Of a stretch of 64,000 nt of DNA, positions 28,310 through 43,343 are shown piece after piece. The stretch comes from Candidatus Latescibacterota bacterium (GTDB taxonomy: Bacteria; Latescibacterota; UBA2968; SICM01), in the NCBI GenBank assembly GCA_965217865.1, contig CBDCJO010000002.1, positions 4,192,001-4,256,000 on the forward strand, read 5' to 3'. Position numbers and translations under genes: made by a program. The notes under the pieces were generated by a model. That model worked only from the letters and a program-made list of their open reading frames with translations, had not been told where the DNA came from and did not search any database. Position 1 is the stretch's first letter. Every line of letters starts with the position of its first letter.

Positions 28310-28920
28310 TTACCCCAACAGTATTGGGTTTACGGTCAAACCTCCATCAATGATGTATTCAGAACCAGTGATGAACCAGGCATCGTCTGATGCCAAAAAC
28401 GAAACGAGTTTGGCGATTGCCTCTGATGTACCGAACTCCTTTAACGGAACTCTATTTTGCATGGCTGAGGCAAATCCCTGGATTTGCTCATCACTCATTC
28501 CTGTTTTTCCAAAGATTTCAGTGGCAACAGGACCTGGATTCACCGAATTGACTCTAATCTTTCTAGGGGCCAATTCTGTAGATGCCGTACGCGTATATGA
28601 GTTTAACGCTGCTTTACTGGCGGCATACGCTGCCGTATTGGCCATACCGGTATAGGCGTTGATCGATGAAAGGTTGACTATCGAGGCACCATCGCTCAGA
28701 ACGGGCAGAAATTTCTCTATGGTAAATACTGCACCTTTGAAATTAATGTTCATGATGGTGTCGAACGTAGTGTCATCAATTGATCCTACAGGGGTAGGGT
28801 AGAAGACACCCACATTAACAAATAATATGTCAACTTTGCCGTACGTGTTTTTTACCTCAGCAACCAGGTTATCTGTGTGCTCGAGGTTCCCCTGGTCAGC
28901 CACAATTCCCTTCACCCCTA
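28310..28920 (-). pseudogene. Short-chain dehydrogenase/reductase, 5'-truncated at IS copy 3
   Basis: YAASKAA, RVNSVNPGPVAT, ITGSEYIIDGG; the TGxxxGIG N-terminus is missing. Confidence 0.85.
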
Positions 28921-28921
28921 T

Positions 28922-30447
28922 CAGCCTGTTGAAAAAGTGCATTTATGCCAAGATGACTGTTGTCTTTCCTTGTGGTTTGGTCCTATGATATATCAGGTTC
29001 AAACTGAGAAGGGAGGACGAGCAAATGGCAATGGGAAAACGAGGACGACAGAGACAGGAAAACCTGTTCATCGCATCGAACACTTTGGTGAAATCTCCGG
29101 GTCATCCGTTCTACGAGAAGCTGAATCAGGTATTGGGGGCGAACGGCTTCGACGAGTTCGTCGAGGGGCTTTGCCAGCGGTATTACGCTCCTCATATGGG
29201 TCGCAAGGGCATTCCGCCCGGGGTTTATTTTCGGATGCTTTTGATTGGGTATTTCGAGGGACTTGATTCGGAACGTGGGATCGAATGGCGTGTATCTGAC
29301 TCGCTGACGTTGCGCCGGTTTTTGGGGTATGCCCTTGACGAACAGACCCCGGATCATTCCAGCCTGTCTCGCATCCGGCATCGGCTTCCCTTGGAAGTTC
29401 ACGAAGCGGTTTTCAAGTGGATCCTGAGGGTCTTGTGCAAAGCGGGTCTGGTGAAGGGGAAGACGTTGGGCGTGGATGCTACGACACTGGAGGCCAACGC
29501 CGCGATGCGCAGCATTGTACGCCGTGACACGGGTGAAGGCTACCAGGCATTCCTTGAGAATCTGGCCAAGGCCTCGGGCATTGAAACGCCTACCCGCGAG
29601 GACTTGTCCAAGATCGATAAGAAGCGACCGAAGAAGGGATCGAACCAGGACTGGGAGCACCCGCACGACCCGGATGCCAAGATCGCTAAGATGAAGGACG
29701 GTCGCACGCACATGGCGCACAAGGTGGAGCACGCGGTGGATCTGGACACCAATGCCATTGTGGCAGTGGCGTTGTCGGGAGCAGATGAAGGAGATACCGA
29801 GTCGTTGCCCTGGACGCTGCTCGAGGCGCCGCTCAATCTCAAGCAGGTCGCGAAGGACGAAAAAGCTGCCAAACGTTTGCACAGACAGCGTATACGGGAG
29901 GTGGTTGCGGACAAAGGATATCATAGCAACGATGTATTGACCAGTCTGAAGCAAGGCGGCATCCGGAGTTACATTTCAGAACCGGATCGGGGACGCCGCA
30001 AGTGGAACGGCCGACGAGATGAGCAGGCCGCGGTATATGCGAATCGACGCCGGATCAAGGGAGATCGCGGCAAGGCCTTGCGCCGAAGTCGTGCAGAACG
30101 GGTGGAAAGAACCATCGCTCACACATATGATACCGGTGGCATGCGCAGGTTGCACTTGAGAGACCGCGGCAATATCCTCAAGCGTTTGCTGATCCACATC
30201 GGGGGCTGCAACCTGGCTCTGCTCATGCGCAAAGTGATGGGCGTAGGTACTCCGAAGGCCCTCCAGGACCTGGCCAAGGCCTTGCAGCGTCTACTGCTCG
30301 TCCTACAATCACGTTTGCTGCCCTCGGTCACCTTTTTAACCTCTTATCAGCGTCTCCTGCTCAATCTCCTTACCTTGATTTATCTGACCCGCACTCCAGG
30401 CGTCTTTTCCGTTTATGTGCGTTGAAAGGTAGTTCTTCAACGGGCTG
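28922..30447 (+). mobile_element. IS1182/IS5-like insertion sequence, copy 3
   Basis: Transposase 29025-30425 translates identically to copy 1; same IRs. Confidence 0.92.
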
Positions 30448-30461
30448 ATAGCCCAACATCG

Positions 30462-31235
30462 TTAGTCGTCGTTCCGCACGAAGCAATATGTTTGTCCGAT
30501 ATCTCGAAATCCTAGCCGCCGGTATAGGTGTTGGGGCCAGTCGTCGGCCTCGGTGAGAAGAAAAATGAAATCACATCCTTGCTTTCGAGCATGGTCAGTC
30601 GCTGTATTGATGACGGCGGTCCCATAACCTCGTCCCTCAAAAAGAGGATCAGTCGTTATCTCGTCAATTTGCGCCGTCGCCCCCCTCCGGTATAACACAC
30701 AGCGGGATACGAAAGCATCATCTATTCGAACGGCAGAATACGCAAGTTCGCAGCACTGTTGGTACGTTATCGCACGATCCGTGAGGCGCCGAGCGCCCTC
30801 TTCAGATTTGCCCATGTGTCGCCAAAACCCTTCGATACCCGGCCTGGCCTCATCGAAAGTCACAATTTCTGCCTCAATACCTGGCTGCCGCGTTGGTGCG
30901 TCAATTAAGGCCATGTACAAGTCCGATGATAGCTCATAGTTATCCTCTTGCAAAGCAGGTGCCAAAGCGTCAACCAGACTTTTGTCGTCAATTGAGATGA
31001 CACGAAACGCTACTCCGACTTCATCGAATACGCGATCGAGTTGTAAAAGCAAGTCCCCCGGCGGCACGTCGTGATCGACACGTGCGAAATTATGAGAGAG
31101 CGCATTGAGATGGTCGGTGTTCAGAACGATGCTTCCAAATTGAGTCTTCACAATTTCAGTGGCGGCTCCGTCCAATAGTGCCCTCTCGTGTTCCAAGGCT
31201 CGCGAAAGCATCTTGTTGGCGGTGCCGTTGGTCAT
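30462..31235 (-). CDS. GNAT acetyltransferase (cassette gene)
   Basis: TDPLFEGRGYGTAV, LYRRLGF; GAGGAGG RBS just after an attC. Confidence 0.85.
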   Translation of the reverse strand: MTNGTANKMLSRALEHERALLDGAATEIVKTQFGSIVLNTDHLNALSHNFARVDHDVPPGDLLLQLDRVFDEVGVAFRVISIDDKSLVDALAPALQEDNYELSSDLYMALIDAPTRQPGIEAEIVTFDEARPGIEGFWRHMGKSEEGARRLTDRAITYQQCCELAYSAVRIDDAFVSRCVLYRRGATAQIDEITTDPLFEGRGYGTAVINTATDHARKQGCDFIFLLTEADDWPQHLYRRLGFRDIGQTYCFVRNDD

Positions 31236-31519
31236 CTATATCCCCTCCTCATATGTCAGTTAACGTTTGGCACCCCCGAACCTGCAGCGGGCGCGGCACT
31301 TGCCCTTAAGGACTTTCACAAAAGCAGCAAGCGCCGTGTCCGCGATAGCAGGTTTGGTCGAGGGCCGTCAGGCCCGAGCTGGGGGTGCCTTGTTACACGA
31401 CGTGGTTGCTGTTAGATGTTTTGTTTCGTTGCGTCCAATCAGTTCGAAGAAGCCCATATACGACTCGATCCTTCCAAACCCCCTCATGAAGCGAATGCAT
31501 TCTTAGATCGCCTTCTTTA

Positions 31520-31763
31520 CTCATTCCACACTACTTGACAGTGCTCTAGAAAGCGTGTGAGCCAACCGCATACTGATGAAGAACAAATGCGCAGACAGCT
31601 CTGGCAGATTGTTTATTGTCACGACGTGCTCATTCGGAATGACGAACATATGCCCCGGATTAGCGGGATGCAGTGCCATCAGTCCGGTAACCAACTCGTC
31701 GGCATAGACAATACTTGCTGGCGCTTCTCGCCGAGCGATTTAGCAGAAGATACATGATTTCAT
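31520..31763 (-). pseudogene. HIT-family protein pseudogene
   Basis: MKSCIFC*IARREAPASIVYADE...HPANPGHMFVIPNEH; early stop, C-terminus lost; end coordinate approximate. Confidence 0.7.
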
Positions 31764-32192
31764 GGCTCTGATATTCCTGTTACGAGAACGACCGCTCTGC
31801 TCATGGTCGTTGGATGAGGAGATTGGCAGGAAGGCGACTATCTGACCGCCCAACCTGCACAAAGCGCTCTCGTCCTTGACCAACTCAGTGCCTCATCTGG
31901 CCACGTTCAATCCCACCATCTCTCCTCCCCACACTTTCTCGAACGGTAACTCGTTATTGAACTCAAGAATGCAGTATATCCTCTTCTATTCTGGAAATAT
32001 GCTGCAAGTGTGTTTGTCCCATCTCGTCCCATGTCATTTAACGTCTTCGCCACTTGCGAACCCGCCACCGGCGGGTTGCCGGAGGCCAAGGCGCGAATGC
32101 GCCGCAGCGCAAGTCGCGCTGTTAGAAGATGTGGTATACCCCCATCTATCCAAACTGTAAATCAAATGAAGACTTTACTACGGTTTATAAGC

Positions 32193-32672
32193 TCACCAAG
32201 AGTCAAGAAAATTCTTACTGCGCTCGTGAAGTCTGGCGCCTTTCGGCGGCATAAGGAATCTGAACCCAGACTTCTCGTGTGTCTGCCATTTGTATGGAGT
32301 ATCGCATCGTGGACACTTGATAGCATTATTCTCCGGTTCGCATCCCCGCATTGTCGCATGGCAGACTTTACAAAACGTCACACAACCGTAGCTATCTATG
32401 TCTCGCGATTGTTTCTCGCCAGAGAAATCGTCATGGACAGTCTTGCAATTCAAGCAGACGAATAGCCCATGTCTATCAGGTTTCCTTCCTTCATATTCAC
32501 GGAAATACCGCAGTATGGCCTCCTGTGCTTCGATGCTGATTTGACGAAAGGATTTCACTTTGGCTTCGCAGAACTGACATGGAAAGCTAATCCACTCCAC
32601 CAGTTTCTTCAGACCAAAAGCAAACACCACCAGTCCCGCGAGGCCAAATCCAATAAGAAGTGCTGGATGCAT
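32193..32672 (-). CDS. Hypothetical membrane-anchored protein with four CxxC pairs (cassette gene)
   Basis: N-terminal TM helix; CQFC, CLNC, CKVC, CPRC. Confidence 0.7.
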   Translation of the reverse strand: MHPALLIGFGLAGLVVFAFGLKKLVEWISFPCQFCEAKVKSFRQISIEAQEAILRYFREYEGRKPDRHGLFVCLNCKTVHDDFSGEKQSRDIDSYGCVTFCKVCHATMRGCEPENNAIKCPRCDTPYKWQTHEKSGFRFLMPPKGARLHERSKNFLDSW

Positions 32673-33017
32673 GGTTCATCTCCAATTTCGGACCTGCAAT
32701 TGAGCAGCGACAACGCAGTATATCCCGATCTATTCCGGAGCTATACTAAACAGGTCTCTATCCCTTCCATTTCTTCTAACGTCCGCGCACTTGCGAACTG
32801 CCGGCCTGTCCTCCGGAGCTGCGGCCTGTCCTTCCGAAGCTCCGAAGGAGCGAAGGAGGAAGGAGCGAAGGAGGGAGGAAAGTTGGGTCGAGGGCCGTCA
32901 GGCCTGAGCCGCAAGTGCAGTTGTTATGGGAAGTTCCAGCCGGCTTCTTGACTATCTTCCCAAAAAGCATCAACTTCAGAATCGGATATTGGGTCTTAAT
33001 TTCAGAAGAGCGATCCT

Positions 33018-33668
33018 ATGGAAGATCTACAATCACTCATTAGACAGACGCGAGAAGGCAATCTCCGCGCATTTGGCTATGTAGTCCGAAGATTTCACGA
33101 CATGGCGGTCGGATACGCCTTCTCCATCCTGAACGATTTTCATTTGGCGGAAGATGTCGCTCAAGAAGCCTTTGTGCAGGCTTTCTCCAGGCTCAGTCAG
33201 CTTACGGCCCGCAGGAAACTGAAGGACATCATCACCAGCAAATTCGATGAGTTGTTGCCAGAAACTTCGCCAACACACACCTATCAAGGAGCCCAGCATA
33301 TGTTCAAAACGATGTTTCCCGAGCTGCACGTATCCGACGTCGAAAAGGCGGCGACCTTTTTCTCAGAGGCGCTTGGTTTCAAAAGAGGATTTACATACGA
33401 GGAGGAGGGGAATCTGGACTTCGTTGTAATGTCCCACGGAGACAAGACCATATACCTCCACCACATGCTTCCTGATGTTGAGTCCGAGCAACCACGTCGG
33501 ATGAGACTCTACTTCCAGCCGTACGACATTGATCGCCTTCACACAGAGCTGAAGTCAAAGGGGTTCCAGGTTTCGCAGCTTGAAGATGAGAGCTACGGGG
33601 CAAGGACGTTCACTCTGAAAGGACCTGACCAGTACGAGATTTGGTTCCAGCAATGGACATCGAACTAG
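33018..33668 (+). CDS. Internally deleted ECF sigma factor fused to a VOC/glyoxalase domain (inverted within its cassette)
   Basis: VRRFHDMAVGYAFSILNDFHLAEDVAQEAF jumps to TARRKLK; then PELHVSDVEKAATFFSEALGF...YGARTFTLKGPD. Confidence 0.75.
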   Translation: MEDLQSLIRQTREGNLRAFGYVVRRFHDMAVGYAFSILNDFHLAEDVAQEAFVQAFSRLSQLTARRKLKDIITSKFDELLPETSPTHTYQGAQHMFKTMFPELHVSDVEKAATFFSEALGFKRGFTYEEEGNLDFVVMSHGDKTIYLHHMLPDVESEQPRRMRLYFQPYDIDRLHTELKSKGFQVSQLEDESYGARTFTLKGPDQYEIWFQQWTSN

Positions 33669-33792
33669 AGTTACCTTGGGCTGGAATTTCCCATAACGTC
33701 TCGCGCATGTCCGCAGCGAGGATTTGGGAGGAAGCCGGTGGTTTTCTCCGGCTGTAGCCGGACATGCGCTGTTATATGAAGTTCGACCCCAT

Positions 33793-34539
33793 TCAATTAT
33801 ACTTTGTAGATATTTCATTGTACGATAAATTTCCCCCATAGATGTCAAGGGCAGAACCAACCGTAAAATTGATTTTGCTATTTCCATGCTTCTCTACTAA
33901 TGATATATCATTATATGATTTTATTCCTCCTGCATATGTTGTAGTAATAGGAGAAAATTCACCAAGCATTTTTATCAAATCTACTTCAACGCCTGACATT
34001 TTCCCTTCAACATCAACAGCATGCACTAAAAATTCATCACAATATTCTGATAAAAACAATAAGCAATCTTTATCAATTTTACAGTTTGTGAACTTGCTCC
34101 ACTTGTCGGTCATAATATAATAATCTGTCTCCTTTTTCCTTGAACTCAGATCTAATACAATATTATCTTTTTCAACAACCTTTCGGAGTTTTTTAAGATT
34201 ATTTAGATCAATTTCACCATTATTAAACACAAATGATGTTACAATTATATGTGATGCTCCTTTTGAAATATAATAGTCAGCATTTTCGTCATTAATCCCA
34301 CCGCCAACTTGAAGCCCTTTTGGGAACACTTCAAGGGCCTTTATTACTTGAGATTCATTTCCAGGGCCTAGCATCATAATATGACCGCCATATAGATTGC
34401 TGTTTTTAAACATTGTAGCATAATAGGTTGCTGGTTGAGTAGAAATAAAATTCTGTTTAATTTCATTGTCTTTTAATGTACTGCCAATAATCTGTTTTAC
34501 TAATCCATTATGAAGGTCAATACATGACCTGAATTTCAT
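33793..34539 (-). CDS. hisA: ProFAR isomerase, His6-like HisA type (cassette gene)
   Basis: KFRSCIDLHNGLVKQIIGST, LQVGGGIN, EFLVHAVDVEG, TYAGG, TVGSALDIYGG; very AT-rich. Confidence 0.88.
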   Translation of the reverse strand: MKFRSCIDLHNGLVKQIIGSTLKDNEIKQNFISTQPATYYATMFKNSNLYGGHIMMLGPGNESQVIKALEVFPKGLQVGGGINDENADYYISKGASHIIVTSFVFNNGEIDLNNLKKLRKVVEKDNIVLDLSSRKKETDYYIMTDKWSKFTNCKIDKDCLLFLSEYCDEFLVHAVDVEGKMSGVEVDLIKMLGEFSPITTTYAGGIKSYNDISLVEKHGNSKINFTVGSALDIYGGNLSYNEISTKYN

Positions 34540-34747
34540 TTATCATTACCTATTAGAAATATTATACAATGGGGTCGAATTTCATATCACGTTTCGGCTG
34601 TCCTGAACCGCGAAGCGGTTGGGTCGGAAGGAGCGAAGCGACTGGAGCCAGGAACAGCCTGATATTAATATAAAGGCCCTCGTTGTCAGGAGAGGTTATA
34701 ATTGAGATCCGGATATCTCAATCACCTTTCTCCCACAGGAGGGCCTT

Positions 34748-35791
34748 ATGCAATACGCAAGGATCGACTCGAACTATTTCTGTGGCATCGATCTCCACGC
34801 CAGAACGATGTTTGTCTGCATCATGGACAAGATGGGAGAGATTGTGTTCCAGCGCAACCTGAAAAACGACTTCAAGCTCCTGCTGCAGGTGCTGGAAACT
34901 CACCTCGGTAGCATCGCCGTCGGGGTGGAGTCAACCTTCAACTGGTACTGGCTGGCTGACGGGTGTCACAAGGCCGGGATTCCATTCTACCTGGGACACG
35001 CCCTGTATATGAAGGCGATCCATGGGGGCAAGAAAAAGAACGACCGTCTCGATTCCAGAATGCTGGCTGAGCTGATGCGCTGCAACCTGTTCCCGATGGC
35101 CTATGCCTATCCGCAAGAGATGCGGGCAACCCGGGACCTGCTCCGGCGAAGACACCGGTTTGTGGCCTTACGGGCTGAGTGTTACACCCACATCCAGAAC
35201 ACCTTCTCTCAGCAAGCTATCCTGGATCCTCTCAGCGACCAGGTCAAAAAGAAGAGCAACAGGAGAAAGCTGTGCGAACGTCTGGCCGACCCAGATCTGA
35301 GTATGTCTGTGGACTGCGATCTGGACCTGGTTGACTCCCTGGACAAAATGATCTACAAAGTCGAGAAGCAAGTCTTGGCACAGGCCAAACATCACGATCG
35401 CAATGTCCTGTCTATCCTGATGACGGTTCCCGGACTTGGGGAGATGTTGGCCATGACCATCCTGTATGAAATCCACACGATTGAACGGTTCAAATCCGCT
35501 TCAGCCTTCTCCTCCTACAGCCGGCTGATCAAAGTCGAGAGAGAGTCCGCTGGAAAGAAGACAAAGGACGGGAATAACAAAATCGGCAACCCACACCTAA
35601 AGTGGGCCTTCTCAGAAATCATCCTCGTCGCCCAGCGATGGTCAGAACCGATCAATAGATACTACGAGAAGCTCAAAAGCAAACAAGGTCCGGGAAAAGC
35701 CAAGAGCGTCATCGCTCACAAATTCGGCGTGGCCGCCTACCAAATGCTCAAAAACGGCCAGGCATTCGACGAGAAACGGTTTGTAGCATAA
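34748..35791 (+). CDS. IS110 DEDD recombinase/transposase
   Basis: GIDLH, VGVES, KNDRLDS, TVPGLG, ESAGK, KIGNPHLKWA. Confidence 0.93.
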   Translation: MQYARIDSNYFCGIDLHARTMFVCIMDKMGEIVFQRNLKNDFKLLLQVLETHLGSIAVGVESTFNWYWLADGCHKAGIPFYLGHALYMKAIHGGKKKNDRLDSRMLAELMRCNLFPMAYAYPQEMRATRDLLRRRHRFVALRAECYTHIQNTFSQQAILDPLSDQVKKKSNRRKLCERLADPDLSMSVDCDLDLVDSLDKMIYKVEKQVLAQAKHHDRNVLSILMTVPGLGEMLAMTILYEIHTIERFKSASAFSSYSRLIKVERESAGKKTKDGNNKIGNPHLKWAFSEIILVAQRWSEPINRYYEKLKSKQGPGKAKSVIAHKFGVAAYQMLKNGQAFDEKRFVA

Positions 35792-36270
35792 TGGGTGGGG
35801 CGGTTAACCCGGCGCCTAACTGGCAGGGCAACGTCCGGACAATAGCCCAGCTCATCGGCTTGATTGGGAAGCCGCCTTCACCCCTTATTTAGAACATAGA
35901 TGAGCGGATCTGAGACAGTCAGTCCGTCTGCCCCCGCGATGAACCCGAACCTAACTGGCGTTCCCCCTCATAAAAGGGGAGAACAGCCATCCTTCTTGAT
36001 TGGGACTCAAGGGGTACCGATTATTTTCTGGAGGGAGAGGACAATGCCTCTCCCAGGGCGCTCCACAGTATACCGTGAGAGGCGCTTGATTCCCGATACG
36101 TGTTTGGTGCAGATGGCTCACATCTAGCCCGGTTTGTGAAAATCAAGTCAGACCGACGACTGACAAAGATCCGAACATCGCCAAACCTCTTCGGATCGGC
36201 TCATTGCACGCCCCGAACGTTAGGGTCGCAAAAAAACGGTGAAAATCGTGATGGAGGAGTCTTTTTTTCT
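35792..36270 (+). ncRNA. Putative bridge/seek RNA region of the IS1111-type element
   Basis: ~480-nt non-coding right end with two copies of an aacccg..cctaactggc...cttgattggga framework; boundaries uncertain. Confidence 0.55.
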
Positions 36271-36366
36271 TGACCCGGGGCCTTTAATATGTGTTATGTG
36301 TCTGTGGCAGTTTTGCGATGAGTCAAAACAATAAAGGGGACACCATCAACTTCCCTGGTTTTTCTT

Positions 36367-36888
36367 TTAATCTATCACAATTCTCAGTAGGGTTTCAAAA
36401 CGCTTCTCCATATAGTGGACCTCAGGTGCATCTTCTCTTGGCCCCAAATCCTTCCATCCATACTTCAAATAAAATCTCGCCGCAACAGCATTCGACGGAC
36501 TGACATTAAGTCGGGCTCTCTTACATCCAAGCTGTTTAAAAAATAATCCTACATGCTTGTCGAGCAAATAACCCATACCTTTCTCTCGATATTCCGGAAT
36601 CAGATAATAGAGGTTGACATATCCTACAGCGGGGTCAATCCTCCATCTGCCCATCTCGATCTGACCAATGATCTTATCATCCTTCCAGACGTGGATACAG
36701 CTATTAGGAATCTCACCCATGCGCTGTCTGAGCCAGTTAATATATCTTTCGGCTCCTTTTCCATCGACCTCATGGAATCTCTCTGCCGATCCGAAACTGC
36801 AGATGTAAGAATCCTCTCTGAACTTGATGCACAAATCGGCATGTCGCTCCAAATCAATAGGAATGAAATCCAGATGGTCAACCTTCAT
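36367..36888 (-). CDS. GNAT acetyltransferase (cassette gene)
   Basis: LIPEYREKGMG, NAVAARFYLKYGW. Confidence 0.85.
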   Translation of the reverse strand: MKVDHLDFIPIDLERHADLCIKFREDSYICSFGSAERFHEVDGKGAERYINWLRQRMGEIPNSCIHVWKDDKIIGQIEMGRWRIDPAVGYVNLYYLIPEYREKGMGYLLDKHVGLFFKQLGCKRARLNVSPSNAVAARFYLKYGWKDLGPREDAPEVHYMEKRFETLLRIVID

Positions 36889-37256
36889 ACTTTTGTTCCT
36901 ACGACTATAAAATGGTCTTATTCACTGTCGAACAGGCATATCTGAATATCAAGATCGAATTGTGGCAAACCGGGCAAGGATGATGGGAGAACTGATTTTG
37001 TCCCCCTTGTGTTTTTCAGATCGACCCCAAAACTGCCATTGCACATAACGTCTGAACACTCCCGAAGGGGCCGTGTATCGGAAAAGGAAGCAGTGTTTTT
37101 TGCCATCAGCCAATGAATCAGTCACGGCCCTTTTGACCGAGCGCAGCGAGTCGGGAGTGGGTTGTTAAATGCTGGTGGCGCGCCCCCTTCACGGCGAAGC
37201 CCTAAACGGGGCGGAAATACAGCGCACCCCTTCACCTTGTTTTCCCTACTTCGATC

Positions 37257-37853
37257 CTAATCCAACTTCTCCCTCGCAATCTCCACAATCCGGCCTCGCA
37301 CCACCTGTACGTCCTGTTCTCGAACTGTCCCCAGAGATCCTATCTCATCTCGAATCAGGCCTGCCACACGCTCCGTCACATTCTGGAAAATTCGATCCTG
37401 CACGGCCTGGCTAGCCCCATTCAGCGCAACTGCCAAATCTCTCGTATTCAGCTCACGTAGCATCCCTTGTATTTCCCGGTCGCTCAAATTTATAAGATCC
37501 TCAAACGTGTTCACCTCACGTATCCGTTCCGATAACCGACTTACCTGCTCCATCTCTTCGGCCGAAAGCGACCAGTCGAACACATCCATATTCTCTTTCA
37601 GATGCCCCTCTGAACTCGCCTTGGGAATCACCACCATCCCCTGCTGCACCAACCACCGCAGTCCCACCTGCCCGGGGGTCTTACTGTGGCACTGGCCAAT
37701 ATTGATCAGAGCAGGCTCTCCCAGAATGCGACCCCTTCCTAACGGCGTATGTGCTGTCACCACCACGTTGTGTTCTCGACACCATCGCAACACGTCCCGC
37801 TTCTCCTCCCCGGGATGGTACCTGATCTGGTTCACGCTAATGGGTACCTCGCT
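37257..37853 (-). pseudogene. 5'-truncated aldo/keto reductase fused to a FliG C-terminal domain
   Basis: NQIRYHP, AHTPLGRG, IPKASSEGHLKENMDVFDWSLS, then TFEDLINLSDREIQGMLRELNTRDLAVALNGAS...IFQNVTERVA. Confidence 0.82.
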
Positions 37854-38075
37854 AACGTCCGAAGCTGCGCTTTGCCCACCATAGCTTCCATGGCCACCGA
37901 AGCTTCCCTGGCCACCGAAGCGTCAGCGAAGGTGGCAGAGTAGGTGGGCAGCAGCGGAGGAGGAAGTGGGTTGGTGCGGAGCGTAGCGGAGCCGTGAGCC
38001 ACATGTTAAATGCAGTGCAGGTTTAGCATGCACATTACCTGACGGGGCAAATCTTTGACTCTGCGTTGAAGAAAA

Positions 38076-39401
38076 CTACCCTTCCTTCGGTTTCTTGAAC
38101 CACCACGTGGCTTCAAGGTGTTTTGGAGGAGGGGGGTGGGGCAGCGGGATCCAGGCCCCGACATCCACATCAGGACCCGTAGTCCCAGAGGGCCGGATAT
38201 CATCAGACGGACTCCCGTCTCCGGAATACTTGATATATAGCTTTAGAAATTTCGTCTTTTGTGTAACAACATCAGTTCCAAGGAAATTGCGGATCGGGAA
38301 GAAAAGCTTTACCCGTGCCTCACGTGGGGAATATGTATAAGCTCCTGTTGATTCCTCAAGGGAATCGGTACCGGGAGATAAGCGCCACCCTTTCCTCCAG
38401 ACGATCTCTCCTGTATGGCGGACCTGCATTGGTTCGTGAGGCCGAACGATACCCATCTCCTCTACTTCAATGGGCTCATAGGCAGTTCCCTCATTGTCCT
38501 CCAAATAAATGGTCCAGTTCTTCAACGAAAGAAAAGAGGGCGCGTAAGGTGTTCTCACCTTAAGGCGGATGAAAATGGCGTTCTCAATCCGGTTTTTCGA
38601 CCAGTAAGCCTCACGGATCGTAGATAAGTTCCGACCCTTTGGATTGTAGTATTTGCAGATATGGTGGACTTCTGCCTCGACCAGGTCGGGCGACATCAGG
38701 GTGGCGGCCACGGTGAGGGGTGAACGAACAAGACGATTCTCCAGCCCTGGCCCATGCTTTCCACGGGTCGGCTGCCATAAATCGTCTGTAATGTGCGACT
38801 CACCTCGCAGGGGATCGTTTAAGGGCGCGTACGTTCTAACTATCCAAGTCTTCAGGAGGTCGGAGTAGGACTTCGACTGATCCTGCTTCTGGGGCTTGGT
38901 AAAACTGACATAGTAAACATCCGTTTGATTTGGTTCGTGCAGCCCAGCCCAGGTGTCAATGTAACAGAAAGGCATCTTTTGGTTAAACCGAAGGTCCAAC
39001 AGGCGATCCTTGCGTTTCGTCATATCATCCAGACGGTCCTGCTGCCGGCTGTCGAGACTTCCTCTGAAGTTGTTCAAGACTCTGTCGACTTCTGCGATTG
39101 CTTTCTTCTTTCTATCCCTTACCTCGTTGAGGTCTCCACTCATCCCTTTCCAGATAGCTGCTTCAGATGTCATCCTCGCATAGTCCCACTCGAAGGCCTT
39201 CAAAGTATTTCGGATCTGGGAAATCTTCCACCTTGCTGAATCCTGTTGCGCTGGGGATAGCTTTAGTTTCTTTGTGAGCTTTCGAAGGTCCAACAGATCT
39301 TCCGGTCCTCGACCATGACCATAGGCAACCAAAGCCGGAAAAATGATACAGAGCGCCACAAAGAACCGAGGCCAATGTGTGGTAGTACTTTTTCTCACCA
39401 T
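38076..39401 (-). CDS. Secreted hypothetical protein, 441 aa (cassette gene)
   Basis: Signal peptide; helical N-region (LKLSPAQQ...LDSRQQ); no recognised family. Confidence 0.75.
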   Translation of the reverse strand: MVRKSTTTHWPRFFVALCIIFPALVAYGHGRGPEDLLDLRKLTKKLKLSPAQQDSARWKISQIRNTLKAFEWDYARMTSEAAIWKGMSGDLNEVRDRKKKAIAEVDRVLNNFRGSLDSRQQDRLDDMTKRKDRLLDLRFNQKMPFCYIDTWAGLHEPNQTDVYYVSFTKPQKQDQSKSYSDLLKTWIVRTYAPLNDPLRGESHITDDLWQPTRGKHGPGLENRLVRSPLTVAATLMSPDLVEAEVHHICKYYNPKGRNLSTIREAYWSKNRIENAIFIRLKVRTPYAPSFLSLKNWTIYLEDNEGTAYEPIEVEEMGIVRPHEPMQVRHTGEIVWRKGWRLSPGTDSLEESTGAYTYSPREARVKLFFPIRNFLGTDVVTQKTKFLKLYIKYSGDGSPSDDIRPSGTTGPDVDVGAWIPLPHPPPPKHLEATWWFKKPKEG

Positions 39402-39858
39402 TCCCCCCTACCCTTGCTGTAGGTTGAATACCTGCATTGCATTTAATGTTCAGGGTTGCAGAAGTGGCCGTGCATTGGTAAAGATAAAAAAGTTTTACAG
39501 GAAAGTATAAAAGAAAAACCTACGGCCATTTTTGGGGTGGGTGGAAGGTGAGGTGGGGAACTGCAACCCGGTGTTAGACGCCGCGGGCTCCGCTTTTCAC
39601 ATCCTCATGATTTATTTAAGAGAGGCCTCAGTTCCCTTCGCGTTTCCACGGCAGTGCGCTTTGCTCAACGGCTTTTCGGACATTACCGAGCCAAATTGGC
39701 CATAACCAATCCGTCTCGCACCCGAGGGGCAGATACTTCTTGTCAATAATGTGCTTCTGCTCGCGGTCAACTTTGGCTTGGACATAGCGTTCAACCTGAG
39801 AGAAGGGAATCCACGCATAGGGTCCACTCTCAAAGTAGGATCTGTCATTTTTAGGTGT

Positions 39859-40059
39859 TCAAAGGCGACGGTGAGGAGCGCAGAACAGCATTTCGACACC
39901 ATTCCACATCCTCTCGCGGTCGGAGGTCAATCGGACATCAAGCTCGACGGCATCCACGCCAAGGTCAATTGCACGCTGAAAAGCTTGAATAGTATTCTCA
40001 GGTGCTTCACCAGGAGCACCTCTATGAGCTACGATCTCGAATTGATCCACTTTCTCCAA
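39859..40059 (-). pseudogene. Glycerophosphodiester phosphodiesterase N-terminal fragment
   Basis: IVAHRGA...PENTIQAF...[10 protein letters not shown], then similarity is lost. Confidence 0.75.
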
Positions 40060-40335
40060 GGCCGCTGTTTAATAACCGTTTATGAATTGCTCCCCCCCTT
40101 GCCCACTCTCGAATTACCACAAACCCTCATTTCGCCTAACGATTTCGCCGTGCCCGAACCGGCGGCTTGTCCACCGAAGCGGCGTCTTACCCACCGTAGC
40201 TTCCCTGGCCACCGAAGCGTCAGCGAAGGTGGGCAGCCGCGAAGGTGGAAGCCGGTTGGGCGAAGGGCGTAAGCCCGTAGCCGGGCACGGACGTGTTATG
40301 CGGCGTTAGCTTCCTCTCGTTCATCACAAGGGAAA

Positions 40336-40917
40336 TTAAGAATCCAACATTTTCCTCAAGTGCTGCAATACCAGTGTATCTCGTTTAGTCCAAAGCGGCG
40401 GATTCGCGGTCGGCGAATTAAGTAGAGCCGAGTTTTTCTGGATCGCATCATCGATTGTTACCCAGGTAGGAGTAAACTCCAGATCCTCTTCGTATTGATC
40501 CAAGGTTTGCTCTCCGAGCGTCGGCTCTACGTCACAGAGATAATAGTGGGATCTCATCTTAAAAACGTCGTAGTCTGCATCAGAAGCCGGACCGTAGGTT
40601 ACCATCTTTCCATAAGCACCACGAACAGCCGTAACCTTTGTCCCACACTCTTCACGTATTTCTCGAACAAGTGCCTCTTCGTGCGTCTCGCCAGACTCAA
40701 TGCCACCACCTGGAAACTTGAAATCGCCATTCTTGGGAGAGAATACCATCAGCAACTCACATTCACGAAGAATAATGCCCCGTACCGCATCTCTCAGACA
40801 TGTCCGACCACTGAGATCTAGGTCTTCCGGCCGAATCAGTTTTCCAATAACTTGCATATCGTATAACTCTTTAGTGATGTGATCGCGAGTTGATGCTACC
40901 AGAGGTTGATGAGTCAA
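40336..40917 (-). CDS. NUDIX hydrolase (cassette gene)
   Basis: KFPGGGIESGETHEEALVREIREECG; true start probably the internal MQVIGK. Confidence 0.85.
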   Translation of the reverse strand: MTHQPLVASTRDHITKELYDMQVIGKLIRPEDLDLSGRTCLRDAVRGIILRECELLMVFSPKNGDFKFPGGGIESGETHEEALVREIREECGTKVTAVRGAYGKMVTYGPASDADYDVFKMRSHYYLCDVEPTLGEQTLDQYEEDLEFTPTWVTIDDAIQKNSALLNSPTANPPLWTKRDTLVLQHLRKMLDS

Positions 40918-41219
40918 CTAAGTCTCTAACTAATGCCGCATAACGTTCGTGGATCTCTAAACCCGCCCGTGTTTTTTTGGCGGGTTGCCGAAGGCCGAAC
41001 GACCGAAGGGAGTGAGCAGAGATCCATTGTTATAGGATGTGCCAGCCCGGGGTGGGGTAGGGGCTTGCCAAGAACGGAAAGCTTCGGAGAATCTTCAAGA
41101 CGCAGATAGCATATCTCCTGGAGCATATGTCTCCACAGGGCCTCCTTCGCTACATCCAGCCCCCCTCATGTCCTGGTTAAACAGCGATCTCAGCCTGGGC
41201 TCTCCGAGGTTGCCTACAG

Positions 41220-41870
41220 TCAATATAGGACATTGAGCTTCTGCTCAACAATATGGGGGTTGTCACCGCTTTGAATCGACTTGATGCCCTCAAGGACTTT
41301 CCGATATTTCACCTTCTGTTCATGTAGCAAAGACTCCATCCAGGTGCTAAGAATTGCCTGAACCAGTTCTGGTTCCGTTCCATCCACGGCTAGCCGAACA
41401 GCCGTAGTCAAAAACTTATCGCCCGGGCTTTGCACCATATTTTCCAACGTCATGATGCCTTCTCTCCGAGCTATCTCGGCAAACCCGACAAACAGCCTGT
41501 TAATCTCATCGGAACCGAGCTCAGAGAGCGGACGCTTGATGGTGGTTCTTATCGCCCGTTTCGTAGCGAGGTATTTCTTCCCAAGCTTGGGCTTTTTAAG
41601 TTGCCTTACAGTTTTCACGATGGACAACTGCACATCCTCCACATCGCGCATTGGAATCGGATCGGAAATTTCCATTTCCTCTCTGACCATCGTCCGCACA
41701 CGCTTCGACATATTGCCAAATATTCGACCTTTCAGCTCCTTTGTCGCACCTTTCAGTGCAACAGCCAGGTCTTTCGTGTCCACCTCCCGTAGCATCAGCT
41801 GGATCTCCCGATCCGTTAGTTTCGAGAGATCGTCAAAGGTGATTTCATGGGTTGCTTGCGTCGCTGACAT
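41220..41870 (-). CDS. FliG C-terminal domain fused to the cytoplasmic part of MotA, no TM helices (cassette gene)
   Basis: AAGGAGG RBS; TFDDLSKLTDREIQLMLREVDTKDLAVALKGA...NMSKRVRTMVREEM (FliG_C); AEIARREGIMTLE...FLTTAVRLAVDGTEPE and LEGIKSIQSGDNPHIVEQKL (MotA). Confidence 0.85.
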   Translation of the reverse strand: MSATQATHEITFDDLSKLTDREIQLMLREVDTKDLAVALKGATKELKGRIFGNMSKRVRTMVREEMEISDPIPMRDVEDVQLSIVKTVRQLKKPKLGKKYLATKRAIRTTIKRPLSELGSDEINRLFVGFAEIARREGIMTLENMVQSPGDKFLTTAVRLAVDGTEPELVQAILSTWMESLLHEQKVKYRKVLEGIKSIQSGDNPHIVEQKLNVLY

Positions 41871-42054
41871 GATTATGTCCTCCTTATGAGTCGTTAAGGG
41901 TGGTCTGGGATGGCCGCCTCTTGTTTTTGGGCTGGCATTTCCTATAACGTTCAGTGGCTCACGAACCCGCGCCAGCGGGTTGGTGCGGAGCGCAGCGGAG
42001 CCGTGAGCCACATGTTATGAGAAGTGCTGCCCGAAGATACTTCCACAGCATCGC

Positions 42055-43031
42055 TCATCGAGCACCGAGGGACGCATATCCGCTTCGCTCCCAAATCTGC
42101 TCTGGGGGGTACTTGTAGAAGTCCAGCCAGGAGTCCTTCCCGTGCCGATTCGTGTATGCCTCACAGAGTCGGAATCCCAAAAAGTAGGCAAGTCGATCGA
42201 CGGCGCCGTCCCAAGGATAGACGTGCCACTGGTGGAACTTGCTTATCGTCTCCCAATCACATGAGCCGAGATCCGGAACCGCAGCTGACACTACCTCCCG
42301 CTCATGGGCTAGTGCCCATTTCCACGCTTCCTCGCTGAACGATATATGCTTCGGCGAAGAGCCGCGTCCCTCCCAGCATATCCGGTTCAGAAAGCAGCAG
42401 AATCCTTCCTCCACTATCGACCTGACGAGTGTTATCGGAACTGAGGGATGAGCCGTGTTGTAGACTTGATGGTTCAGCTCGTGCGGCAGCATGAACCTGA
42501 AATGCTCTTCCGGCTTTTCCCCAAGATTGGACAGATTTGCCCACATCGTACCTTGGGTCCCTCCAAGATCTCCGCCAGCCAAGTAAACCAGGTACCAGTC
42601 CCCATGGGGCTTGCGTCCCGTGGTCCGAATGAATATCTCAGCAACCTCGCTGAACATATCGGTGAAATTGAGCCGGAAAGGGAGTTGGAAGGCCGGGTTC
42701 CCGACATCAGAGATCTCGGGAATCCCCGTTTCGGCCCACTGGCGGAGGTTTTCCTCCCTGGGGAAGAGAAACTGCCATAGGTGAGGTGAATGGCCGGTAG
42801 GTGTCTACGACGAACTGGTGTGTTCGTCGAGCGAGGTCCTGACCATCAGTTCGCGCCACGGAGAGGATCTGCTCTTTCCAGACGTGGATGAGCCTCAGGC
42901 CGGTATTCGGAATGAATTCCTCAACTGCCGGCGATGCTTCCAGAATCCGGGTAGCTTCCTGCAGGCTCTGTGGAATCTGTGGTGCCAATGCCAGAACCTC
43001 ACTTTGGAGTCAGCAGTATGGGTTTGCTCAT
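42055..43031 (-). pseudogene. DUF2268-like putative Zn metalloprotease, frameshifted (first cassette)
   Basis: PHELNH, VEEG, AYFLGFRLC; several frame breaks upstream of 42700. Confidence 0.6.
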
Positions 43032-43048
43032 TTCACGGGCAGCATTTC

Positions 43049-43130
43049 TCATAACTTACGGTATTCCTGAACTCCTACGCAGATTCCATCATTTCGGCAC
43101 ATCTCCCGCCCTTCGCAGATACCTCCCCAC
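43049..43130 (-). other. Probable attI site
   Basis: GTTATGA core (43055-43049, minus) complementary to the end of cassette 1; no attC hairpin upstream; next to the integrase remnant; upstream boundary uncertain. Confidence 0.55.
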
Positions 43131-43207
43131 GAAGAACCAACCCGTATATGTTCGTAGATCCCTTGTTATTAGGAGAAATCGTTTTAGGACGAACCCACCT
43201 TTGACAA

Positions 43208-43343
43208 TTACATTATACTATCCAGAGCACTCTGAATCTTTCCGATATTTCGGGTTGTGACCCTGGGATAGATTTCGGTGGTCTTAGAACTCTTATCCTA
43301 ACAATTCTTGAATATAACGCAAATCCGTTCCACGTTCAAGCAA
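43208..43343 (-). pseudogene. C-terminal remnant of a tyrosine recombinase/integron-type integrase
   Basis: LLERGTDLRYIQELLG / frameshift / KSSKTTEIYPRVTTRNIGKIQSALD*; box II with the catalytic Tyr. Confidence 0.78.

What the first reader, a model, noticed from the sequence alone, without database searches (positions are those of the whole stretch)
31254..43055. Cassette ends form ~20-bp extended stems with a G:T pair fixed at position 11
Seen: complementarity between each cassette's two ends extends well past the 7-bp core: 42014-42033 vs 43036-43055 (19/20), 41029-41048 vs 41929-41948 (18/20), 38005-38022 vs 39430-39447 (16/18), 33771-33790 vs 34571-34590 (18/20), 32923-32940 vs 33680-33697 (17/18). 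The stem sequences differ, yet on the plus (attC bottom) strand the 11th base from GTT is G opposite T in all of these and also at the cassettes ending 40295, 39573 and 32121. Known: IntI recognises folded bottom-strand attC through structural irregularities inside the R boxes. Inference: an extra determinant outside the canonical attC, formed only in the excised circle, or a footprint of how cassettes are made.
Basis: partly seen in the sequence, partly recalled or inferred. Interest (0 to 1): 0.75.

Follow-up and report, generated by a model that had tools for sequence, protein, structure and literature searches.

The report
Strand-marking wobble in integron-like cassette ends
The two ends of most gene cassettes in this array are complementary over about 15-20 bases with one fixed G-T wobble at position 11, a mark shared by arrays in several bacterial phyla and phages that lie beside a recombinase lacking the hallmark segment of integron integrases, and the wobble likely tells that enzyme which DNA strand to cut.

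Summary
Observation confirmed; interpretation partly. The five stems have the stated counts, and cognate ends beat all 100,000 reshufflings. But G11 and T11 are fixed letters of every site, so G-T also forms in the array: 9 of 11 sites here, 29 of 37 genome-wide. It is not circle-only. The enzyme is not IntI: the array starts at an attI-like leader behind a remnant of a tyrosine recombinase about 42 residues shorter than IntI in the signature region. The inner hairpins lack the classical extrahelical G. Beside homologues, G-T at 11 recurs in 16 of 19 (same phylum) and 30 of 32 (Bacilli) adjacency-defined cassettes, in Bacteroidota and in phages, against 1 of 45 Vibrio cassettes. It follows site polarity, not gene direction. 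Best reading (inferred): T11 is read on the cut strand, and G is the partner that keeps T off the other strand, a strand selector replacing the extrahelical G. Ten literature searches found no description. This scan reported the same mark before on other DNA.

The parts
31250..43055 (+). Array of 11 attC-like sites and 11 cassettes. The plus strand reads toward the attI-like site and is called 'bottom' here by analogy with integrons; most cassette genes are on the minus strand.
   Evidence: Pfam hits of cassette proteins
42014..42033 (+). R'' arm of the first cassette, G at position 11 (42024)
   Evidence: 19 of 20 pairs with 43036-43055
43036..43055 (+). R' arm of the first cassette, T at position 11 (43045); abuts the attI-like leader
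41029..41048 (+). R'' arm, pairs with 41929-41948, G-T at 11
   Evidence: 18 of 20
41929..41948 (+). R' arm of cassette 41029-41948 (FliG_C-domain gene)
40295..40944 (+). NUDIX cassette; ends pair over 15 positions with G-T at 11
39573..40140 (+). Cassette with weakly matching ends (9 of 20), G-T at 11 nominal only
38005..39447 (+). Cassette with 441-aa gene; ends pair 16 of 18, G-T at 11 (and at 1)
37164..37856 (+). Unit with non-cognate ends (4 of 20, G-A at 11) and a fused aldo-keto-reductase/FliG_C ORF; probably a deletion scar
   Evidence: scar reading is inference
36293..37049 (+). GNAT cassette; long stem with a one-base bulge, G-T restored past the bulge
   Evidence: duplex -18.6 kcal/mol
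34661..36290 (+). IS110-family element inserted in the right arm of site 34591-36292, two bases before the GTT
33771..34590 (+). HisA-like cassette; ends pair to about position 23, G-T at 11
32923..33697 (+). Cassette whose gene (33018-33668) is on the plus strand, opposite to the others, yet with G-T at 11 on the same strand as the rest
32121..32780 (+). Cassette; ends pair to position 14, G-T at 11
31392..32042 (+). Cassette; ends pair to position 14 with two mismatches, G-T at 11
41949..42013 (+). Example inner hairpin: 5-nt versus 2-nt unpaired spacer, 10-bp stem with no bulged G, ending at a CG-AAC motif
43049..43210 (-). attI-like first site and conserved leader. It keeps the CG-AA motif of the inner arm but has no partner GTT; 7 near-identical copies genome-wide, most followed by unrelated cassette ends
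43211..43343 (-). 3' remnant of a tyrosine-recombinase gene, broken, same direction as the cassette genes
   Evidence: near-complete frameshifted copy at G000:C2:1657175-1658351 (L001); intact 99% twin P0001
43569..44481 (+). IS1595-family element upstream of the recombinase remnant (not part of the system)

Best explanation
The paired cassette ends are the outer arm of the folded sites of an integron-like system that lies beside a tyrosine recombinase without the IntI insertion, and the fixed G-T wobble at position 11 likely acts as the mark that tells this enzyme which strand to cut and so which way round to insert a cassette. Shown: private stems of about 15-18 bp; separately conserved G8/C8 and G11/T11; inner hairpins with an uneven spacer and no bulged G; linkage to this recombinase family and an attI-like site; neighbours exchanged at the AAC box. 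Inferred: the enzyme reads T11 (about ten pairs from the cut) on the strand it cleaves, where it pairs with A in duplex attI and with G in the folded site. A at the partner position would make both strands look alike, whereas G still pairs with T on one strand and leaves C (an A-C mismatch) on the other. The wobble would thus do the job that the extrahelical G and the I2 segment do in classical integrons.
For: Detectors blind to positions 8 and 11 give G-T at 11 in 13 of 15 cognate pairs in this genome, 16 of 19 and 30 of 32 adjacency-defined cassettes in same-phylum and Bacilli loci, 28 of 30 in metagenome loci and 4 of 5 in two plasmid loci, and A-C on the outward-reading strand in 127 of 143 distinct pairs in viral contigs. 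Control: 1 of 45 Vibrio cassettes, where 60% are Watson-Crick at 11; 46 of 51 versus 1 of 45, Fisher p 2e-20, overstated because kin are not independent. T11 is nearly fixed (33 of 37, 46 of 47, 57 of 57) while its partner is G, sometimes T or C, and A in 0 of 141 inner-hairpin-defined sites. In phage arrays the genes face the other way, and the mark stays on the strand reading toward the first site (90 of 113; first marked cassette within 90 nt of the recombinase in 20 of 42 loci). Recombinase: catalytic R, K, H, R, H, Y invariant in 27 homologues; 53-59 residues between two motifs against 100-101 in IntI; sites found on the antisense strand downstream, 47 versus 5 and 57 versus 0. In classical integrons one extrahelical G sets strand choice (PMC2727003, passages) and needs the I2 segment (PMC4792948, passages); both are missing here.
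Against: No recombination was assayed and the cut strand is not shown. A does occur at the partner position: 4 of 72 Bacilli pairs from the complementarity-based detector, at least two of them real-looking cassettes. Folding energy hardly separates the strands (0.1-1.8 kcal/mol in favour of the plus strand in 8 of 11, reversed in 3), so the effect would have to come from protein read-out, which I could not model. The uneven spacer (2-4 nt longer on one side) could set the strand by itself. Position 10 is also often mismatched (T-T in 5 of 19 and 16 of 32), which fits a flexible hinge as well. This genome's recombinase copies are broken in the assembly. No circle junction appeared among the listed joints.
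Confidence: 0.6

Rival explanations
1. The wobble, often with a T-T mismatch at position 10, is a flexible hinge or shape cue that the recombinase needs for binding, bending or synapsis; strand choice comes from the uneven spacer instead.
For: T-T or T-G next to the wobble in 8 of 19 and 17 of 32 cassettes; the first pair beyond the inner stem is also a mismatch at a similar distance from the spacer (A-C or A-G in 41 of 47 and 50 of 57); the spacer is uneven in all sites detected.
Against: A hinge would be served by many mismatches, yet T is almost invariant on one arm and the partner is G in about 90%; T-G in the reverse sense is 0 of 141.
Confidence: 0.22
2. About the long private stems (compatible with the main reading): in a single-stranded array a cassette's own ends pair and, with the two neighbouring inner hairpins, pre-form a four-way junction that one pair of strand exchanges resolves directly into a circle plus a shortened array.
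For: Predicted pairing of cognate ends 0.56-0.99 on the plus strand in 5 of 6 cassettes folded with both flanking sites, in-array arms at most 0.35; cognate duplexes -17 to -24 kcal/mol for the seven long stems against -3.5 to -10.8 for in-array arms.
Against: Equilibrium folding of naked 1-kb DNA ignores SSB and kinetics; the other strand folds almost as well; stems could be kept purely because the circle must be a good insertion substrate; classical cassettes also extend to 9-11 nt (PMC2727003).
Confidence: 0.3
3. The stems and the wobble are a footprint of cassette birth (one end copied from the other, with a fixed lesion or primer base) and have no role in recombination.
For: Complementarity is private to each cassette and needs some generating process; some stems run past 24 bp; no accepted model of cassette genesis exists (PMC4792948, passage).
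Against: Copying gives A-T; the same two letters are kept across phyla and phages; pairing ends sharply at a lineage-specific point (after 15 in same-phylum loci, after 18 in Bacilli); the mark ignores gene direction, which argues against an RNA-derived origin.
Confidence: 0.08
4. One reading: an extra determinant for a classical IntI that exists only in the excised circle.
For: The full 15-20-bp stem is most complete in the circle; relatives of this organism do carry true IntI genes (17 of 168 genomes).
Against: G-T forms in array sites too; no IntI over cut-off in this genome; the attI-like leader is tied to the insertion-less recombinase; loci around true IntI genes give 25 pairs in 1.45 Mb with 1 G-T and 3 A-C.
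Confidence: 0.03

Closest known systems
Classical integrons (IntI, attI, attC; IntI1, Vibrio cholerae VchIntIA, PDB 2a3v)
   Same: Array of single-gene cassettes between hairpin sites with inverted AAC/GTT triplets; a half-site beside a tyrosine recombinase; neighbours change at the AAC box; 2a3v is the best sequence and fold match of P0001; cognate ends extend past 7 bp, known to 9-11 nt (PMC2727003, passage; confirmed on 45 Vibrio cassettes).
   Different: Recombinase about 42 residues shorter in the IntI-specific region, often with an extra N-terminal domain (weak HARP hit, E 0.0095); no bulged G needed to pair the inner stem; spacer uneven by 2-4 nt; outer stem 15-18 bp with fixed G8-C8 and G11-T11.
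'Integron-like' subgroup of tyrosine recombinases (Smyshlyaev et al. 2021, PMC8138268)
   Same: [quoted passage not shown]
   Different: In the passages read, no cassettes, sites or wobble are described for the members without the insertion.
Reverse-orientation integrons (Spirochaetota) and archaeal integrons with attI downstream of intI
   Same: Recombinase and cassettes in the same direction, attI behind the stop codon (bioRxiv 2022.02.06.479319, passages).
   Different: Those integrases are stated to carry the IntI additional domain; this one does not.
XerC/XerD and archaeal XerA
   Same: Same catalytic-domain length class; NCBIfam NF040815 and XerC/D models hit below their cut-offs.
   Different: Separate, fully supported branch; sits beside cassette arrays, with private hairpin sites rather than one dif site.

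Membership tests
Classical integron | Integrase with the IntI-specific additional domain (I2) | tested here: not met
   TIGR02249 positions 181-234 unmatched; P0001 265-287 versus 2a3v 176-240; motif spacing 53-59 versus 100-101 residues; no match over cut-off in the genome
Classical integron | Catalytically intact tyrosine recombinase next to the array | tested here: inconclusive
   Only a broken 3' remnant in the window and a frameshifted copy elsewhere in the assembly; an intact 99%-identical protein exists (P0001) with invariant catalytic residues
Classical integron | attI site at the head of the array with crossover at the AAC/GTT triplet | tested here: met
   Constant leader begins at the TAAC and is preceded by different cassette ends in 7 copies; activity not tested
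Classical integron | attC with inverted R boxes, unpaired spacer, inner stem and variable terminal structure | tested here: met
Classical integron | Extrahelical G in the L'' box, 6+7 versus 5+8 geometry | tested here: not met
   Inner stems pair ungapped over 7-12 bp with left arm 2-4 nt longer; most of the 38 genome sites need no bulge
Classical integron | Cognate cassette ends more complementary than in-array ends | tested here: met
   91 of 132 versus shuffled mean 50.5
Classical integron | Cassettes are mobile units exchanged at the R' box | tested here: met
   Five contigs from other runs leave the reference at or within 6 nt of an R' box (31266, 34587, 40146, 41943; 40948); two genome sites share hairpin and R'' arm but differ in R' arm. 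Indirect; no circle seen
Classical integron | Single-strand (bottom) hairpin recombination with replicative resolution | not testable with these tools
   needs a recombination assay
Classical integron | Pc promoter driving the cassettes | not tested
   no promoter scan run; no RNA holder listed
XerC/XerD-dif system | Protein groups with XerC/D and passes their family cut-offs | tested here: not met
   below cut-offs in pieces; separate branch 100/100

The most novel reading that the evidence does not exclude
This is the older form of the integron. A recombinase without the I2 segment picks its strand by a T in a G-T wobble on the outer arm and excises cassettes by resolving a four-way junction pre-folded from the cassette's own ends. 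Classical IntI arose inside this family (IntI groups with two insertion-less proteins, 97/97, whose cassettes carry the mark) and replaced the wobble by an extrahelical base plus I2. The position-11 rule then gives a simple search key for a large, so far uncounted cassette pool in Bacillota, Bacteroidota and phages, including the unit that carries tet(X3).
Probability: 0.3. Interest if true: 0.9.

Novelty: new variant of a known kind. Interest (0 to 1): 0.7.

Why it matters
Integrons are defined by an integrase segment that grips unpaired bases to choose one DNA strand, and surveys built on that definition found no complete integrons in Firmicutes (PMC4889954, passage). Here an array system without that segment and without the bulged G occurs in 16 of 301 sampled Bacilli-class genomes (recombinase) with marked cassettes in the loci fetched. 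A single conserved wobble offers a concrete, cheap test of how strand and direction can be chosen without I2, bears on how integrons arose from simpler recombinases, and gives a diagnostic for finding these arrays.

Tried and rejected
IntI in this genome: none over cut-off. Arrays beside true IntI genes in relatives gave only 7 cassettes with a classical-geometry detector, none with G-T at 11; too few, so Vibrio arrays were used (that script stopped after the cognate table, so the Vibrio in-array table is incomplete). Planctomycetota IntI loci added few pairs. A degenerate site pattern over all GTDB genomes found 4 stretches, none an array of this type: the pattern was too narrow. One Vibrio phage record had no cassettes, and a first Vibrio script found nothing because the locus had not yet arrived. 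The Clostridium plasmid homologue lies beside an IS91 transposase gene, not an evident array. Upstream sides of same-phylum loci gave 0 pairs. Folding stability as the strand selector was rejected as too weak. The extra N-terminal domain is not required for the mark: G-T at 11 in 11 of 14 and 6 of 7 pairs beside proteins whose match starts late, though some of these may be broken genes. Circle junctions: none among the listed joints in 8 runs of contigs, which drop rare variants; joints between look-alike hairpins were disregarded. No RNA holder listed. One site of 38 was dropped before the count of 37 as a classical-type site; the reversed-genome null gave 4, so a few of the 37 may be false. 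The Messier and Roy paper was not held.
Full report
1. The observation. The region holds 11 hairpin sites and a first half-site, all reading AAC...GTT on the plus strand. G faces T at position 11 in 9 of 11 cassettes; the misses are one cassette with a one-base bulge that restores the pair and one unit whose ends are not cognate. Cognate ends pair at 91 of 132 scored cells (positions 8 and 11 left out) against a mean of 50.5 and a maximum of 86 in 100,000 reshufflings.

2. The wobble is not confined to the circle. A detector that uses only TAAC, GTTA and the inner stem found 38 sites in the genome (4 in a reversed-genome null); one classical-type site was dropped. In the 37, the R'' arm has G at 8 in 34 and G at 11 in 32; the R' arm has C at 8 in 31 and T at 11 in 33; G-T forms in the array arrangement in 29. 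In the window it forms in 9 of 11 array sites. For the 15 of 37 arms with a clear cognate partner, position 11 is G-T in 13 and Watson-Crick in none. So G8, G11, C8 and T11 are consensus letters of a long outer arm, and the other positions are private and complementary. Folding six cassettes with both flanking sites as single-stranded DNA predicts that cognate ends pair (0.56-0.99 on the plus strand in five, 0 in the weak one) in preference to in-array arms; the opposite strand does so nearly as well in four.

3. The enzyme is not IntI. No match passes the integron-integrase cut-off in this genome. The first site is followed by a conserved leader found in 7 close copies and more distant ones, which lies at the 3' end of a tyrosine-recombinase gene. 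The window keeps a broken remnant at 43211-43343; a near-complete copy elsewhere is frameshifted in this assembly; an intact protein 99% identical to it exists (P0001). It matches TIGR02249 at 3-180 and 235-315 only. Against VchIntIA the unaligned stretch is 265-287 versus 176-240, and the spacing between two conserved motifs is 53-59 residues in the family members where it could be measured against 100-101 in IntI. Catalytic residues are invariant in 27 homologues. The predicted fold (mean pLDDT 84) matches 2a3v best. There is a weak HARP hit at the N terminus (E 0.0095). The inner hairpins pair without a bulged G and have a left arm 2-4 nt longer than the right.

4. The mark goes with this recombinase family. 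Homologues: 249 proteins at E 1e-30, 27 of 168 genomes of the phylum, 16 of 301 sampled genomes of the class holding a Bacilli genome. Downstream of them, inner-hairpin detection gave 47 sites in 13 of 30 same-phylum loci and 57 in 11 of 14 Bacilli loci, on the antisense strand (5 and 0 on the sense strand). G-T at 11 in array form: 40 of 47 and 53 of 57. In cassettes defined by adjacency alone: 16 of 19 and 30 of 32, with Watson-Crick pairs at 17 of 19 and 28 of 32 at both position 9 and position 12. A complementarity detector blind to positions 8 and 11 gave 40 of 49 (phylum), 28 of 30 (metagenome loci), 4 of 5 (plasmid loci; the four are Rufibacter) and 63 of 72 (Bacilli). In viral contigs the arrays lie upstream and show A-C on the outward-reading strand in 127 of 143 distinct pairs; many of these contigs are close kin. 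Downstream of the viral recombinases the same detector gave mostly background (6 of 28). Controls: 45 Vibrio cassettes pair well to position 9-11 and fall to 13% at 13, with G-T at 11 in one, in line with the published 9-11 nt (PMC2727003, passage); 1.45 Mb around true IntI genes gave 25 pairs with 1 G-T and 3 A-C.

5. Polarity. In the phage arrays the genes point toward the recombinase, so G-T is on the gene-sense strand (A-C on the antisense strand in 90 of 113), yet it is still on the strand that reads toward the first site, which lies within 90 nt of the recombinase match in 20 of 42 loci. In the window, the cassette with a reversed gene keeps the same mark. The mark therefore follows the geometry of recombination, not transcription.

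6. Mobility. Contigs from other public runs follow the window and then leave it at or just beyond R' boxes (31266, 34587, 40146, 41943; 40948). Two genome sites share hairpin and R'' arm but differ in the R' arm. Both fit a crossover at the AAC of R', as in integrons (PMC5027507, passage). No circle junction was among the listed joints.

7. Mechanism (inferred). T11 is nearly invariant on the R' arm (33 of 37, 46 of 47, 57 of 57). Its partner is G, sometimes T or C, and A in 0 of 141 such sites, although A would pair best and neighbouring positions are Watson-Crick. A is not wholly excluded: 4 of 72 pairs. After insertion at attI the same T sits in an ordinary A-T duplex. The simplest reading is that the enzyme needs T11 on the strand it cuts, about ten pairs from the cut and so within a usual recombinase arm (arm length recalled), and that G is the one partner that still pairs with it while leaving C on the other strand. 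That makes only one of the two folded strands a substrate. In classical integrons this choice rests on an extrahelical G (PMC2727003, passages) held by the I2 segment (PMC4792948, passages), both absent here. Against: nothing was assayed; folding energies differ little between strands; the uneven spacer could select the strand; frequent mismatches at position 10 fit a hinge. I give the strand-selector reading 0.6, and about 0.9 that the mark serves this recombinase in some way.

8. Relation to what is known. It works like an integron but fails two defining tests (IntI domain, extrahelical G), so I do not file it as a classical integron. A 46-protein tree joins the insertion-less proteins and IntI against three Xer-type proteins of this genome (100/100) and places IntI beside two insertion-less proteins (97/97); the insertion-less set was one side of a branch in 2% of bootstrap trees. 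The outgroup is small, one branch is long, insertion columns were kept and no clade test was run, so this is a lead. Smyshlyaev et al. note that the insertion is not fully conserved in their integron-like subgroup (PMC8138268, passage). Nivina et al. 2020 report important features in the R box and just outside the L box, none beyond the R box in the passages read (PMC7439510).

9. Novelty. Ten full-text searches showed no description of this wobble or of such arrays; the search combining attC and wobble listed nine papers, none with the word wobble. I read passages only, of ten papers, and no supplements; subscription papers were not searchable, so an earlier report may exist. Within this scan the system and the position-11 mark with a strand-marking reading were noted before on other DNA; my strand-selector note was written, and those notes are not independent evidence. 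Verdict: a real, family-wide feature; new variant of a known kind; interest 0.7.

Noticed in passing
window 34661-36290 and G000:C2 (8 copies of one IS end): An IS110-family element sits two bases before the GTT of a site; 7 of 8 copies of this IS end in the genome follow what looks like the right arm of such a site. It behaves like the attC-targeting IS1111 group (name recalled) but on these non-classical sites.
   Followed up: partly
viral loci L147-L215: In large phage contigs the array lies upstream of the recombinase and the cassette genes point toward the first site (96 of 113 pairs), the reverse of the integron rule; expression must come from elsewhere.
   Followed up: partly
L218:8922-10131 (plasmid pHH1107): The tet(X3) gene lies directly behind tnpF, a truncated member of this recombinase family, in a unit whose ends pair at 1-4, 8-10 and 12-15 with A-C at 11 on the gene strand (read). 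The same homologue is on 24 Acinetobacter plasmid records; their flanks were not read.
   Followed up: partly
G000:C2 genome-wide: About 37 sites and at least 9 copies of the attI-like leader are scattered over the chromosome as mini-arrays, several with only the 3' tip of the recombinase gene: the platform itself seems to have been copied many times.
   Followed up: partly
L011, L014, L225, L232, L237: Relatives G011, G039 and G078 carry both a true IntI and the insertion-less recombinase, each beside its own site type. In several IntI-linked sites the bulged base appears as C on the strand reading AAC-G; which strand is used was not resolved.
   Followed up: no
window 37257-37835 and 41220-41889: Two cassettes encode FliG C-terminal domains outside any flagellar context, one fused to the tail of an aldo-keto reductase.
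   Followed up: no
window 37876-37974, 40163-40259, 32802-32880: Repeated palindromic elements are embedded in the variable tips of three sites.
   Followed up: no
window 30453-31264: A further GNAT cassette whose distal site appears cut off by the IS at 28918-30451; its ends show G at 8 and G-T at 11 by eye.
   Followed up: no
L048:15300-17500: Three sites of this type lie in the opposite polarity to the nearby recombinase gene.
   Followed up: no
L217:14983-17020: A family homologue is paired twice with an IS91 transposase gene on a Clostridium plasmid, with no evident array.
   Followed up: no
window 43199-43224: A sigma-70-like promoter shape by eye on the plus strand, pointing into the 3' end of the recombinase gene, kept in several leader copies.
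   Followed up: no
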